Assembly: GCF_006345805.1 (NCBI RefSeq)
Contig: NC_043019.1
Location: 19,405,360-19,469,359 of the forward strand
Length of the DNA: 64,000 nt
Source of the DNA: Octopus sinensis
Taxonomy: Eukaryota
Direction: 5' to 3'
This document shows positions 9,001 to 61,900 of this stretch, in pieces (positions within the stretch are counted from its first letter, which is position 1; every line of letters begins with the position of its first letter). Made by a program: the position numbers.

Positions 9001-11716
9001 GACAAAATTAGCTTCTATGGAGCCCCAGGATGATTTATTTTGAGACATTTGTTTGGAAAAGAAAAATGCTTCATGACATCAGATATATTACTTCTTTGGT
9101 AAAATCATTGCAATTAATATGTAAGAAACCTGACTCTTTTAATTTCAGGTTGGGCTTCCTTACAATATCCATCAACTCTCTGTTTCTGCTCTGACCTGAA
9201 CCTTTCAACAAAATGGGCAATTGGCTTGGAAGCAATAATGAGAAAAGCAGCACACCATCTTCATCACCACCACCTACACCATCACATCCCTACTCCCCGC
9301 CCACACCATCACATTCCTTCTCCCCACCCACACCATCACGTCCCTACTCCCCGCCCACACCATCACATCCCTTCTCCCCACCCACACCATCACATCCCTA
9401 CTCCCCGCCCACACCATCACATCCCTACTCCCCACCCACACCATCACATCCCTACTCCCCGCCCACACCATCACATCCCTTCTCCCCGCCCACACCATCA
9501 CATCCCTACTCCCCGCCCACACCATCACATCCCTACTCCCCACCCACACCATCACATCCCTACTCCCCGCCCACACCATCACATCCCTTCTCCTCGCCCA
9601 CATCATCACATCCCTACTCCCCGCCCACACCATCAACTTCCTTCTCCCCACCCACACCATCACATCCCTACTCCCCGCCCACACCATCAACTTCCTTCTC
9701 CCCGCCCACACCATCACATCCCTTCTCCCCGCCCTCAAGAACAACTCTGTCACCACCCACATCATCAACTGGAACCAGTCAGAAGCAAGATACGACAAAG
9801 GCAGACAAAGGTTCGTTTTTTTTTAAGCCATAAACCATTGAGATTAAAAGAGAATAGCTAAGTTACTTTTAACATTTAATTCGGTGAACATTAAAAAAAA
9901 AATCAACTGGAATATAATATATGCACAGGTATGGCTGTGGTTTAGGTGTTTGTTTCCCGACCACATTGTTATGGGTTCAATCCTCCCACATGGCACCTTG
10001 GCAAAGTGTCTTTTACTATAGTCCTTGGCTGACCAAAGCCTTGGGAGTGGATTTTGTTGACAGAAATTGAAAGAAACGCATTGTGTGTGACTCCTGACTC
10101 TGCCATCACCTGAGAGTTGTAAACAAATGGGAATTGAAATCCCAATATTGCAATTGGGAATGCAGTTCCTTAACCACCAGGCTATACACTTTCATTATTC
10201 TGCTGAGCCTCTGTGGAATCGGCTGCAAACCTCTCCAACTGTTGGCTGCAGAGTGCAAAGAAACTAATAACTAAAAAGCGTTCATCAACAGAAAGAAAGA
10301 AAAAAAAAGACTAATTTAATGATTTATTATTTTTTACTTAATTATTGTGTTTTTCTTTTGTTCTTAATCTGCAGATGTTCAGAGGTTTTTAATCCAATTG
10401 CTAAGAGATGTCAGTATGGCTGCATATTGTCCTGATCCCAATGTGAGTAAATACACGGTTGCTTTCTTTTTCTTTTTTGTGAGGTGGATCCGGGATTGTA
10501 ATTGCAAATGACCAGCTTTGAGGCTATCTTTTATTTACCTTTCACTGTCTCCTACAAAGTCTCTTTAATACTCTGTCAAATTTAGTGCTTATTTTTTCAC
10601 ATTAATTTGAATAAACCTCATGGTTCTGGGTTCAATCCCACTGCATGGCTCCTTGGCTAAGTGTCTTTTACTATAGCCCCAGGCTGACCAAAACCCTGTG
10701 AATGGATTTTGTAGACAGAAATTGAAAGAAGCCCACTGTATATGTGTGTGTATGTATCTATGTATGTATGCATGGATGTATGTTGTATGTATGTATGTGT
10801 ATATATTTGTATGTATGTATATATGTGTGTGTATATAATCAGTAGTTAAGTCTGAAGAGAGGTACATTCTAAAACTTAGCGAAGTAATAATTGATATTGT
10901 TATTGGTTATGGCCAGTCAGGAAGTTACCATTGGTTTTGTTCCTATAAAGTTCTTAGTGGAACAGGTGACTTTTCAGACTCACTGGCCAGAGGCTGTGAA
11001 AAAAAAAACAGTCTGAAAGGAAATAACAATAATATTAAATTCTTTCATTACATTTGTCACATGGGTCCACTCATTCATACATTACAATAAGGCTTACAGA
11101 ATGTATGAGGATGTGTATACTTAAGATAGAACAAAAACTGGGAATACATAGATGTGGCATGTAAAAAACACCCACTGCTCTCACGCAGTGGTTGGCATTA
11201 GGAAGGGCATCCAGCTGTAGAAACTCTGCCAGATCAAGATTGGAGCCTGGTGCAGCTGCTGGCTCTCCAGACCTCAGTCAGACTGTCCAACCCATTCCAG
11301 CATGGAAAACGGACGTTAATTGAGGATGATGATGGATGCAAATAAACAAAATAAAAAATAAAATGTCAATTGAGAGAGGCAGGAACCTATCACCTAGATT
11401 TAATCAGATCCCTCTACGATCCCGGCCAGCACACTCTCTTCCATACACAGTCACTGAAAAGAGTGAGAGAGGGCCTATGTCCTCTGTCCAGCAAAATATG
11501 AACTGCTACACCTCAACAGCGAAATGGATGGCAGTACAAGCGTAAATAGTCTGCGATACACCCCCCCTCAGAATGAGACAATTTAGCATGGCTGTTTGGA
11601 TACTAATATGGCATGACTGACTGCACATTCAGCCCGTTTTAGCAACAGTACTGCTGAGGTACTGGAGGTAAACGCATGCACAGAAATACACACCTTACAA
11701 ATAAAGAGTGAGAGGC

Positions 11717-11753
<37 letters not shown>

Positions 11754-58900: not shown

Positions 58901-61900
58901 CGTCTACCAAATCCACTTACAAGGCATTGGTCAGCCCGGGGCTATAGCAGAAGACACTTGCCCAAGATGCCACGTAGTGGGACTGAACCCAGAACCATGT
59001 GGTTGGTTAGCAAGCTACTTACCACACAGCCACTCCTGCGCCTAATTTATCTGAATTTTCTCTTTTTAACATTCCTATATTTTATTTCTAAGGACGTCCT
59101 CTTGGTATCAGATGTCTATTATAGAAAGGGCAATTACAAAATGGCTTTGAAATATTGTGAAAAGGCTTACGAATTTATTCCTCCTGACTTTATGTCCAAT
59201 GAGAATTATATGAAACCAATTCTGTATGAAACCATAAAAATAACTGTTGAAGGCTTGCATATGACTTCATTTCCTTGTTATAAAACTAAACCTGACATTT
59301 ATGATGTGTGTAAAGGTAAGTGGAATTTTGTTTTTTCATTTTTTTCAATTACTATGAACTTAACTCTGAGTTTTTCATTGAGGACTTGGCCCACAGTGTC
59401 AAGAGTGGCTATGAGGGGAATCCAAGACAAGCTGATACGGAGGTAGTGATACAGATAAACACAATTAGGCTTCACACACGTGTGCGCATGCATGCGTGCA
59501 TGTGTGGCACCCATGCCAGTGGCACATAAAAGGAACTCCTGCCACGATATGTAAAAGGCACTCACTATGCCCTTGGAATGGTTAGTGTTAGGAAGGGTAC
59601 CCAGCTGCAGAAATCAGGCTAAAATCAGACGAGTTTGGTACAACTCTCTGGTTTACCAGTTCCAGTGAAACTGTCTAACCCATACTGCATGGAAAATGGA
59701 TGCTAAATGATGATGATGATGATGTATCAAACCTAATTATGTTTATTTACATCACTACCTCTCTCTCTCTCTCTCTTTATCAACATTTAACGTCTGCTTT
59801 TCATGCTGGCATGGGTTGGACAGTTTAACAGGAGCTGGCCAGGCAAAAGACTGTACCAGACTTTTGTGTCTGTTTTGGCTTGGTTTTTATGGCTGGATGC
59901 CTTTCCTAATACCAACCACCCAGCAGAGTGGACTGAGTGCTTTTTATTTGGTACCAGCACTGGCAAGGTCACCAAATAACTACAGACTGATAGATAGAGA
60001 GGGAGGGAGAGATTACAGTTTATTAATTGAAAACTATCAACATATACATCTTTACTAACATCATATACATAATTTAAATAAAGTTTTGTAGTCAAGTAGT
60101 TTATTAACTGTGAGATAACAAGACATCAAAAGGTCTTGGGGACAAAGCATTTGATTTGAAATAAAATCAGCATTGAATGAACCATACCAGATGAGCAGGG
60201 ACAAAACAGCTGAGCCAAACTATCTCATATTTAGACCTCAATTGGTAGAGGCTTCAGACTGTTCAGTAGTTAAAGGTGGTCATCATTCAACGATGATGAT
60301 GATGATGATATGTTATAATAATTGATACTAAATTTGACTTAACAGTCAATCTGTCTTGATCATTATGAGGATAGCTAAATGAATGAGTTTCTGTAATCAG
60401 ACAGTGGTACATATAAAATTGGTATTTTAAGTTAGAAGCTAAAGATGGTTGCTAGGTGTAAAAGACTAAACTAAAATATGCGTTTGTATATATATGTGTG
60501 TGTGTATGCATGCGTGTGTGTGTGTGTGTTTTCTGATTGATGTGTTTAATGTTGCTTTAAATTATTTGCATTCATTTTCTGCAGGACTTGAAAGCTTCAT
60601 TTTACAATGTTTGCCTCTCTTATTCAACATTGGAAATGAAGCTGTGAAAAGAGGGGAAGATTTGCTCGGTGCATTTGCCTTTAATACTTTTTACACGTAT
60701 TGGCCATATCATGCTAAAGATTTTTTGAAAACATTTCACCTGAGGCAGCTTGATACTTCAGTATTCAAAATGGATGTTATGCAAAAACTCATTGTACTGT
60801 TTGTGAAGCACAATTTTGACTTGAGAAAACTTGCACTCCATGATGGTGATACCTACTTACACTCATGTGTAAAACTGTCCTTGTATTATGGTATGTGCAA
60901 TTTAATTTACACTTTTTTTGTTGATCTGATTGACACTTTAACTTAGCAATATTTTCTCTATTTTCTAACAGGAAAAGAAAACAATGTTTTGACCTTACAA
61001 GACTTAGCTGTAATTTACATTAAAACTTGGATGAAGTAAAAAAAAAAATTTGCTAACCGTTTAACATTCAATAATATTCCAACTGAAGTAATTCCTTTTA
61101 TTGAATAGAAATCCTACAGTTTAATCTACAGAGTTTAGGGGCAGCAACAATGGAAGGCCATTTCAAATTGTAAAGCTTAGCTTTTGTAGAGCTTTAACTG
61201 TGATTTATGCACAAGCAGTAGTGAAATAGCAGTGAAGGTTTGATTTTTTTTGAACTTGCAAACTTTTTGAGCCCTGATGCAAAATCCTTAGTTGTTCTGA
61301 GACTCTATTATGGGATAATTTCAAGATCTTTGTTCATGATACCTGGTAGGAAACTGGTTTGAATTCTGTATGAATGAGGTCATTGTGCTGAAGGTGAAAG
61401 GGTTGTGGAGAGAACTTTAGTTACAAAAAGTGGTGTGAATTGCTTAAGGCTGGTTGGTCAGGAAAGGAATTATTTAATGGAAGGTTCACATTTTTGTTTT
61501 CTTTTTAATAATTCTTTTACATCCAGTTGTCCATGTTAACAATTCTGCATTTTGGGTATCTGCTATCAATAATAACTAGAGGCAGGCAAAACTCTGCGTT
61601 TCTCACAGACACAAGTAACCAACTTTGAACTTGGCACTCTATAATTTCACTTCACAAATTGTTTGCCTCAGAGTCACTGATATAAGCATCTTATATATTC
61701 CTCCCTTGACACATCATCAACAGCATTTGACATCCATTTTCCATGTTGGTATTAGTTAGATGGTTCAACTGGAACTGGTAAGCTGGAGAGCTGCATCAGG
61801 CTCCTGTCTGTTTCCGTTTGGTTTCTATGACTGAATGTCCTTCCTGACACTGACCATTTCATAGAATGTACTGGCTATCTTTCACGTGTCACTAGAATGA

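What the first reader, a model, noticed from the sequence alone, without database searches (positions are those of the whole stretch)
9213..61039. Large TPR/ankyrin gene built from a repeated 4-exon module
Seen in sequence: after the repeat exon, exon phases cycle 1-0, 0-1, 1-1, 1-1 (10375/14936/20166/21414; 27070/32859/35671/38079; 56267/59093/60585/missing). The third exon of each cycle has a similar length (327, 312, 306 nt) and ends in an LH-type helix plus Gly (ALHVAAEIATVSG, IHKILQLTLDIG, YLHSCVKLSLYYG). The fourth carries the ankyrin hairpin (DRNKQTA, NARNETLLH). Inference: an ancient tandem multiplication of a TPR-like plus ankyrin cassette, now strongly diverged. From memory the cassette resembles the single TPR-ankyrin region of TRANK1, so this could be a lineage-specific, possibly immune-related, multi-module relative.
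Basis: partly seen in the sequence, partly recalled or inferred. Interest (0 to 1): 0.7.

Follow-up and report, generated by a model that had tools for sequence, protein, structure and literature searches.

The report
Ankyrin/TPR repeat gene with recurring exon pattern
This looks like an ordinary multi-exon animal gene for a helical-repeat (ankyrin plus TPR) scaffold protein, in which one ankyrin-type exon ending recurs three times at the same intron position. The claimed link to TRANK1 and to immunity could not be tested.

Summary
All 11 acceptors follow AG with a pyrimidine tract, GT donors give the stated phases, and the third exons are 327, 312 and 306 nt.

Two exons hold recognisable repeats:
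- E9 matches designed ankyrin proteins, E 5e-7.
- E11 matches consensus and natural TPR proteins.
- Both stay below Pfam's gathering scores.

Ordinary comparisons find no similarity between modules. When the third exons E4, E8 and E12 are anchored at their phase-1 donors, their last 20-30 residues are alike in register:
- The three pairs rank 1, 2 and 3 of 55 exon pairs.
- Only 7 of 613,032 possible registers reach the anchored score.

First and second exons show no such similarity. The period-4 pattern of phases and of exon sizes each has a chance of 3 in 165.

So a recurring ankyrin-type exon junction is real. A whole 4-exon TPR-plus-ankyrin cassette is only suggested. TRANK1 kinship, a helicase part and an immune role stayed untestable, because protein searches of eukaryotes were closed. 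The spliced model was never joined. Interest is low to moderate.

The parts
9213..9810 (+). E1, putative first coding exon: ATG in good context, MGNWLGS..., then a Pro/Ser/His-rich repeat. Ends AAG|GTTCGT with 1 base left over.
   Evidence: No Pfam match. The link to E2 is unverified.
9276..9734 (+). 27-nt tandem repeat, 17 copies, 90% matches, no indels. Consensus peptide TPSHPYSPP in the ATG frame.
   Evidence: It is open in all three + frames and in one - frame. Substitutions do not favour any frame: 5 synonymous / 15 non-synonymous in the ATG frame against 3/17 and 8/12 in the others.
10375..10442 (+). E2, 68 nt, phase 1-0, donor AAT|GTGAGT.
   Evidence: Only 22 codons, so this is the weakest exon.
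14936..15080 (+). E3, 145 nt, phase 0-1, donor CAG|GTAAGT.
   Evidence: No Pfam match.
20166..20492 (+). E4, 327 nt, phase 1-1, donor CAG|GTGAGG. Ends ...APALHVAAEIATVS plus a split Gly codon.
   Evidence: No Pfam or PDB match. AF2 mean pLDDT 42, mostly helices. Atlas gave no usable hit.
20402..20491 (+). Last 30 codons of E4: shared ankyrin-type ending, copy 1.
21414..21626 (+). E5, 213 nt, phase 1-1, donor CTG|GTAAAC (alternative donor at 21771, same phase). Holds ...DATDRNKQTAFE...
   Evidence: No Pfam or PDB match. Start-anchored similarity to E9 is weak: 250 of 4189 registers reach it.
27070..27197 (+). E6, 128 nt (or to 27236, 167 nt), phase 1-0.
   Evidence: No Pfam match.
32859..32976 (+). 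E7, 118 nt, phase 0-1, donor AAG|GTAAGT.
35671..35982 (+). E8, 312 nt, phase 1-1, weak donor TTG|GTAACA. Ends ...AVKIHKILQLTLDI plus a split Gly codon.
   Evidence: Pfam gave only chance-level rows. No PDB match.
35892..35981 (+). Last 30 codons of E8: shared ankyrin-type ending, copy 2.
38079..38327 (+). E9, 249 nt, phase 1-1 with donor TCA|GTAAGA (alternative end 38287, phase 0). Ankyrin repeats (...NARNETLLHSLVQ...KLLLKKG...).
   Evidence: PDB phmmer matched designed ankyrin proteins at E 5.4e-07, among 49 hits that are mostly ankyrin. Pfam Ank_4 E 0.00097, 19.9 bits, below the 22.7 cut-off..
56267..56517 (+). E10, 251 nt, phase 1-0, weak donor CAG|GTTTGA.
   Evidence: No meaningful Pfam or PDB match.
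59093..59315 (+). E11, 223 nt, phase 0-1, donor AAG|GTAAGT. Residues 6-38 form a TPR motif.
   Evidence: PDB phmmer matched consensus TPR proteins, down to E 5.4e-29 on many-repeat targets and 2.5e-05 on the 2-repeat CTPR2. It matched the natural HOP/STIP1 TPR at 6e-04 to 7e-03. Pfam TPR_2 E 1e-04, 22.6 bits, below the cut-off of 27.
60585..60890 (+). E12, 306 nt, phase 1-1, donor ATG|GTATGT. Ends ...HDGDTYLHSCVKLSLYY plus one exonic G.
   Evidence: No Pfam or PDB match. In the Atlas, the ten best family-bearing hits are all ankyrin clusters at 0.84-0.89, which counts as a lead only. AF2 mean pLDDT 50, all helices.
60800..60889 (+). Last 30 codons of E12: shared ankyrin-type ending, copy 3.

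Best explanation
A + strand, intron-rich protein-coding gene runs from about 9.2 kb to beyond 60.9 kb, with introns filled by LINE-type retroelements. It encodes a mostly alpha-helical solenoid protein that holds ankyrin-type and TPR repeats.

One element recurs three times, at every fourth exon. It consists of the end of one ankyrin-type repeat, the loop, and the '[LI]H' first helix of the next repeat, cut by a phase-1 intron 10 codons after the His. The most likely origin is internal duplication of an exon block, followed by strong divergence.

Likely function (inferred from what ankyrin and TPR repeats do in general): a cytoplasmic scaffold or adaptor that binds partner proteins on its repeat surfaces. 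If E1 is real, the protein starts with Met-Gly in a myristoylation-like context (pattern recalled, not tested). A Pro/Ser-rich repeat follows that could be phosphorylated or bind SH3/WW-type domains.

Shown: splice-signal anatomy, the ANK match in E9, the TPR match in E11, and the in-register similarity of the three third-exon endings. Inferred: that all twelve exons belong to one transcript, the duplication history, and the function.
For: - Acceptors, donors and consistent phases.
- E9 against designed ankyrin proteins, E 5.4e-07.
- E11 against consensus and natural TPR proteins.
- End-anchored ungapped scores of E4/E8/E12 rank 1, 2 and 3 of 55 exon pairs at N=20.
- Shuffle p values are 0.0064, 0.0146 and 0 of 5000 at N=20, and 0.0004, 0.0060 and 0.0010 at N=30.
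- Only 7 of 613,032 (N=20) and 5 of 420,912 (N=30) window triples reach the anchored sum. It also tops the 165 and 120 end-anchored exon triples by a wide margin, 41 against 1 and 24 against -20.
- In sliding controls, the terminal window of E8 is the best of 381 windows for E4's ending and the best of 388 for E12's ending.
- Phase periodicity 3 of 165, and the three longest exons in period 4, 3 of 165.
- The Atlas places E12 next to ankyrin clusters, as a lead only.
- A profile of the three endings puts an ankyrin protein first in the PDB, aligned in the canonical helix-loop-'LH' register, but at E 1.1.
Against: - No transcript evidence.
- Local Smith-Waterman with 300 shuffles found no significant pair among 55. 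The best was z 1.87, for the non-cognate pair E8-E9; cognate pairs ranged from -1.73 to 1.67.
- In global alignment the cognate pair E4-E8 (z 2.44) is matched by the non-cognate pair E4-E11 (z 2.43), and E4-E12 gives z -0.32.
- Leave-one-out two-sequence HMMs do not retrieve the held-out third exon among the window's ORFs: rank 151-426 of 1521, or not listed at all.
- phmmer of each exon against 1523 window ORFs finds only the exon itself.
- First and second exons and the third-exon starts show nothing when anchored: fractions 0.12-0.79.
- Pfam gathering scores are not reached by any exon.
- AF2 single-sequence models are poor, pLDDT 42 and 50.
- The Atlas gave no usable hit for E4.
- The ANK reading of the endings is not significant: E 1.1 and hhalign probability 1.3%.
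- The phase chain needs the less obvious E9 donor.
- E1's repeat shows no frame-specific constraint.
Confidence: 0.55

Rival explanations
1. The gene is the same, but there is no 4-exon cassette. It is simply a protein with several ankyrin-type repeats whose introns sit at the same place in the repeat, as happens in repeat arrays that grow repeat by repeat. The period-4 pattern of phases and exon sizes would then be coincidence or selective reading.
For: Similarity is confined to the last 20-30 residues of the third exons. Every other anchor gives nothing. The lengths of the first two exons differ widely between cycles: 68+145, 128+118 and 251+223 nt.
Against: Two independent features, phases and exon sizes, share the same period and register as the sequence motif.
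Confidence: 0.25
2. It is the 5' part of a TRANK1-type gene (TPR and ankyrin repeats followed by a helicase-like P-loop part), with the remainder lying beyond the window. It is compatible with the best explanation.
For: TPR and ankyrin repeats lie in one + strand gene. The gene appears to run off the window, since no fourth exon follows E12. A mollusc, Aplysia, has an annotated TRANK1 transcript, listed in a co-expression module next to antiviral-type genes (PMC8195618, passage seen).
Against: No comparison with any TRANK1 sequence was possible. No helicase-like ORF was seen after E12. Several other families combine TPR and ankyrin repeats; the Atlas listed a TANC2 cluster at 0.86 for E12, as a lead only.
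Confidence: 0.15
3. The chain is a composite: two or more separate genes or gene fragments. For example, E1-E3 may be spurious or belong to another transcript, or the locus may be a decaying pseudogene riddled with retroelements.
For: E1-E3 have no family signal and rest on splice signals alone. E2 has only 22 codons. An 18-kb retroelement-filled gap separates E9 from E10. A crude scan shows that comparable acceptor+ORF+donor combinations occur elsewhere on both strands.
Against: Every exon keeps an open frame, and phases are compatible across all eleven junctions.
Confidence: 0.15
4. It is not a gene at all, only chance open frames.
For: Long open frames are common here in low-complexity DNA and antisense to retroelements.
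Against: E9 and E11 match ankyrin and TPR proteins significantly. Three exon endings share an in-register motif.
Confidence: 0.03

Closest known systems
[quoted passage not shown]
   Same: Both combine TPR and ankyrin repeats in one large protein. [quoted passage not shown] A mollusc transcript is annotated as TRANK1 (PMC8195618).
   Different: No sequence comparison was possible. The helicase-like part that I recall for TRANK1 was not seen in the window. A threefold module is not something I know of for TRANK1 (recalled, not checked).
TANC1/TANC2 (tetratricopeptide repeat, ankyrin repeat and coiled-coil containing)
   Same: They also hold ankyrin plus TPR repeats. A TANC2-named cluster appeared at rank 5, score 0.86, for E12 in the Atlas (a lead only).
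   Different: The cluster's WHD_TANC1 domain and any P-loop part were not seen. Here a TPR exon (E11) precedes an ankyrin-type ending (E12), rather than one ankyrin block being followed by TPRs (that order is recalled).
Generic ankyrin-repeat proteins (Pfam Ank clan; designed consensus ankyrins in the PDB)
   Same: E9 aligns to them at E 5.4e-07. The three third-exon endings carry an '[LI]H' helix start preceded by a loop, in the spacing I recall for the ankyrin consensus. The top PDB profile hit aligns that way.
   Different: No exon reaches Pfam's gathering score. By my reading of the printed exon sequences, the helix after the His is about four residues longer than in the consensus, before the Gly at the exon junction.
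Consensus and natural TPR proteins (CTPR designs, HOP/STIP1)
   Same: E11 residues 6-38 match one 34-residue TPR.
   Different: Only one exon shows it. The other 'TPR-like' exons (E2, E3, E6, E7, E10) have no detectable TPR signal.

Membership tests
Ankyrin repeat proteins | Significant sequence match to known ankyrin repeats | tested here: met
   E9 matches designed and natural ankyrin proteins, best E 5.4e-07.
Ankyrin repeat proteins | Pfam gathering score for an Ank family | tested here: not met
   E9 scores 19.9 bits on Ank_4 against a cut-off of 22.7. Searched exon by exon, E4, E5, E8 and E12 gave no Ank row.
Ankyrin repeat proteins | The third-exon endings (E4, E8, E12) are ankyrin repeats | tested here: inconclusive
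   The profile of the three endings has an ankyrin protein as top PDB hit, but at E 1.1. hhalign to E9 aligns the LH motifs at probability 1.3%. Atlas ankyrin clusters score 0.84-0.89 for E12 and none is usable for E4.
TPR proteins | Significant sequence match to a 34-residue TPR | tested here: met
   E11 residues 6-38 match consensus TPR designs, and HOP/STIP1 at 6e-04 to 7e-03.
TPR proteins | Pfam gathering score for a TPR family | tested here: not met
   E11 scores 22.6 bits on TPR_2 against a cut-off of 27. No other exon gives a TPR row.
TRANK1 | Sequence similarity to TRANK1 proteins | not testable with these tools
   The protein searches that cover eukaryotes were closed, and no TRANK1 sequence was at hand.
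TRANK1 | Helicase-like P-loop part downstream of the repeats (feature recalled) | tested here: inconclusive
   No such ORF was seen in 60.9-64 kb. Only one ORF there was scanned with Pfam, without a hit. The gene probably continues beyond the window.
Tandemly multiplied 4-exon cassette | Same intron phases in each cycle | tested here: met
   Phases 1-0, 0-1, 1-1, 1-1 repeat with the donors chosen; 3 of 165 placements by chance. This depends on the E9 donor at 38328.
Tandemly multiplied 4-exon cassette | Sequence similarity between cognate third exons | tested here: met
   Met only for the last 20-30 residues and only when anchored at the donor. Not met by unanchored methods.
Tandemly multiplied 4-exon cassette | Sequence similarity between cognate first, second and fourth exons | tested here: not met
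   Anchored registers are unremarkable: fractions 0.13-0.79 for first and second exons, and 250 of 4189 at best for E5-E9. Local z scores range from -1.73 to 1.67.

The most novel reading that the evidence does not exclude
The gene is a lineage-specific, multi-module relative of TRANK1. A TPR-like plus ankyrin cassette of about 250-270 residues would have been triplicated exon block by exon block. A helicase-type part would lie beyond the window, and the protein would serve as an innate-immune sensor or scaffold in an invertebrate.
Probability: 0.1. Interest if true: 0.45.

Novelty: new member of a known kind. Interest (0 to 1): 0.25.

Why it matters
As it stands this is an annotation result: one more helical-repeat (ankyrin/TPR) gene in a retroelement-rich animal genome. 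Its small point of interest is methodological and evolutionary. A repeat relationship that ordinary alignment cannot see becomes visible when sequences are anchored at a conserved intron position. That fits growth of solenoid proteins by duplication of exon blocks. If the TRANK1 link held, the gene would add an unusual multi-module form to a poorly understood, interferon-associated gene family.

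Tried and rejected
Tried, with no result:
- Local and global pairwise alignment of exon peptides with shuffles gave no convincing cognate signal.
- Leave-one-out HMMs and phmmer of every exon against all 1523 six-frame ORFs of the window found no paralogous exon.
- An HMM of the three endings found no further copy of the ending.
- Pfam exon by exon gave only sub-threshold Ank and TPR rows.
- PDB searches with E4, E8, E12, E5 and E10 gave nothing meaningful.
- The Atlas gave no usable hit for E4.
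- AF2 on E4 and E12 alone gave pLDDT 42 and 50. I did not send these models to fold search, because low-confidence models give meaningless matches.
- Rfam on the whole window gave 0 matches.
- Listing ORFs of 35 aa or more in 60.9-64 kb showed no convincing fourth exon for the third cycle.
- A list of 175 other + strand ORFs of 55 aa or more was read by eye only. It was not scanned with Pfam, so a missed exon cannot be excluded.
- Codon-position analysis of the E1 repeat gave no frame preference.

Literature:
- 'TRANK1 + UvrD + ankyrin' returned 0 papers.
- The other searches gave listings only. One search was too broad to be useful.
- I found no paper describing TRANK1's exon or module structure in these searches. 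That is not proof that none exists.

Not used or not available:
- Complex prediction and the bacterial genome-contig scan were not used, being irrelevant to an animal gene.
So no comparison with eukaryotic proteomes, TRANK1 included, was made.
- Supplementary files were not consulted.

Considered and rejected: tankyrase, because of the His/Pro/Ser-rich N-terminus (recalled). Tankyrase ankyrin repeats are conserved enough that Pfam should have reported them, and it did not.

I do not take this contig for human.

Full report
**Setting.** The window is 64 kb of animal-type DNA without N, at 36-47% G+C. It is crowded with retroelements. There are long ORFs with endonuclease and reverse-transcriptase domains at 15668-18685 (+), 44056-46287 (+), 46371-47651 (+), 49711-52174 (-) and 54250-55692 (-). 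All of these lie between the proposed exons, not in them. Rfam found nothing in the window.

**The observation.**
- Each of the 11 proposed acceptors follows AG and a pyrimidine-rich tract. 9213 is an ATG with A at -3 and G at +4.
The exons are E1 9213-9810, E2 10375-10442, E3 14936-15080, E4 20166-20492 (327 nt), E5 21414-21626, E6 27070-27197 (or -27236), E7 32859-32976, E8 35671-35982 (312 nt), E9 38079-38327, E10 56267-56517, E11 59093-59315 and E12 60585-60890 (306 nt).
- Three donors (E3, E7, E11) are perfect MAG|GTAAGT.
- The quoted peptide motifs are present.
- Four caveats apply. E9's more obvious donor (38288) gives phase 0, and the chain needs the donor at 38328. The last Gly of the E12 motif is read into the intron. 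The donors of E8 and E10 are weak.

**What the exons encode.** The joined protein was never assembled, searched or folded.
- Pfam gave only sub-threshold rows: Ank_4 for E9 (E 0.00097, 19.9 against 22.7 bits) and TPR_2 for E11 (E 1e-04, 22.6 against 27 bits). The other eight exons scanned gave nothing relevant.
- Against PDB sequences, E9 matches designed ankyrin proteins at 5.4e-07, with 49 hits that are mostly ankyrin.
- E11 residues 6-38 match consensus TPR proteins, and the natural HOP/STIP1 TPR at 6e-04 to 7e-03.
- E4, E5, E8, E10 and E12 match nothing meaningful.
- The language-model Atlas gave no usable hit for E4. For E12 it gave ten family-bearing hits that are all ankyrin clusters, at 0.84-0.89. 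By the tool's own calibration that is a lead only.
- AF2 without an alignment gave poor, mostly helical models: pLDDT 42 for E4 and 50 for E12. I did not fold-search them.
- So the gene does hold at least one ankyrin exon and one TPR exon. The rest is helical but unassigned.

**Are the modules related? Results against.**
- Local alignment with 300 shuffles over all 55 exon pairs gave a best z of 1.87, for a non-cognate pair. Cognate pairs gave E4-E8 0.38, E4-E12 0.64, E8-E12 1.55 and E5-E9 -0.09.
- Global alignment gave E4-E8 z 2.44, but the non-cognate pair E4-E11 gave 2.43, and E4-E12 gave -0.32.
- phmmer of every exon against the 1523 six-frame ORFs of the window found only the exon itself.
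- HMMs built from two third-exon endings did not retrieve the third: rank 151-426 of 1521, or not listed.

**Are the modules related? Results for.** If the modules share ancestry, the introns mark equivalent positions. Comparison can then be anchored there without any search over registers.
- Anchored at their 3' ends, the last 20 residues of E4, E8 and E12 score 8, 6 and 27. Those are ranks 1, 2 and 3 of all 55 end-anchored exon pairs.
- Shuffle p values are 0.0064, 0.0146 and 0 of 5000 at N=20, and 0.0004, 0.0060 and 0.0010 at N=30.
- In sliding controls, E4's last 30 residues find their best of 381 windows in E8's terminal window. E12's find their best of 388 there too. E8's find E12's terminal window second of 386, after an E4 window four residues from the end.
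- Counting every register, only 7 of 613,032 window triples (N=20) and 5 of 420,912 (N=30) reach the anchored sum. That sum also tops the 165 and 120 end-anchored exon triples by a wide margin, 41 against 1 and 24 against -20.
- All three copies have [LI]H at positions -11/-10 from the exon end.
- The same test gives nothing for the first exons (fractions 0.50-0.79), the second exons (0.13-0.68) and the starts of the third exons (0.12-0.15). It is weak for the starts of E5 and E9, where 250 of 4189 registers reach the score.

**What the shared ending is.** Each ending reads as a hydrophobic helix end, a loop, then x-x-[LI]-H and a helix. In E12 this is ...HDGDTYLH.... This is the spacing I recall for the junction between two ankyrin repeats. 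A profile of the three endings puts an ankyrin protein (EMB506) first in the PDB, aligned in just that register. IkB-zeta is fifth of the five hits. The E-values are 1.1 and 4.3, which is not significant. hhalign pairs the LH of the profile with the LH of E9 at probability 1.3%. The 'LH helix plus Gly' is therefore better read as the first helix of an ankyrin-type repeat that continues into the fourth exon. That reading remains an inference.

**Architecture.**
- The three phase-0 introns are exactly four apart: 3 of 165 placements, or 5 of 165 for any complete period.
- Independently, the three longest of exons E2-E12 are four apart, in the register of the motif: 3 of 165.
A missed exon would spoil them, for example in the 18-kb gap between E9 and E10.
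- The first two exons of the cycles differ much in size: 213, 246 and 474 nt together.

**E1.** The 27-nt x 17 repeat is open in all three + frames and in one - frame. Its substitutions do not prefer the ATG frame: 5 synonymous and 15 non-synonymous, against 3/17 and 8/12. A period divisible by three without indels is compatible with coding but proves nothing. The Met-Gly start fits a myristoylation pattern as I recall it. This was not tested.

[quoted passage not shown] A transcript annotated TRANK1 exists in the mollusc Aplysia, listed in a co-expression module beside antiviral-type genes (PMC8195618, passage). No TRANK1 sequence could be compared here. No helicase-like ORF lies in the 3 kb after E12. 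Other families also combine the two repeat types (TANC1/2; Atlas lead). Membership in TRANK1 is therefore untested, not refuted. My searches turned up no paper on TRANK1's module or exon structure.

**Verdict.** This is a real-looking helical-repeat gene. An ankyrin-type exon ending recurs three times at a conserved phase-1 intron. The larger claim of a triplicated 4-exon TPR-plus-ankyrin cassette is suggested but unproven, and the TRANK1 and immune reading is unsupported. It is a new member of a known kind, of low to moderate interest.

Noticed in passing
window 15668-18685 (+): An uninterrupted 1005-codon LINE ORF with endonuclease (Exo_endo_phos_2, 1.9e-11) and reverse transcriptase (RVT_1, 3.5e-31). 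It lies in the sense orientation inside the intron between E3 and E4 and is possibly a recently active element. By the look of their translations, truncated copies lie at 49711-52174 (-), 54250-55692 (-), 31227-32032 (-) and 28324-29188 (-).
   Followed up: partly
window 44056-46287 (+) and 46371-47651 (+): Two further reverse-transcriptase ORFs of other element types (RVT_1 5e-32 and 1.2e-31). The second has a sub-threshold PHD/C1-like zinc-finger stretch. Similar fragments appear at 13582-14653 (-), 33272-34417 (-) and 57265-58194 (-).
   Followed up: partly
window 52003-52912 (-): ORFs just upstream of the LINE copy at 49711-52174. They are basic and carry a Cys/His-rich stretch that looks like a CCCH-type zinc finger, so this may be the element's first ORF. 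Pfam found nothing for 52433-52912.
   Followed up: no
window 23672-24285 (-): Two overlapping minus-strand ORFs (97 and 114 aa) that read like the remnant of a transposon protein. Pfam found nothing for 23941-24285.
   Followed up: no
window 63292-63615 (+): A 107-aa ORF whose middle reminds me of the C-terminal part of mariner-type transposases (recalled resemblance). Pfam gave no hit at E 0.01.
   Followed up: no
window 47800-48580 and 5900-6700: Long simple-sequence tracts (translations read as runs of YI/IY and HT/TH) produce open frames of more than 100 codons on both strands. This shows that ORF length alone means little in this window.
   Followed up: no
window 9274-9822 (-): The E1 minisatellite is also open on the opposite strand (182 codons). 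This underlines that its coding status is unproven.
   Followed up: partly
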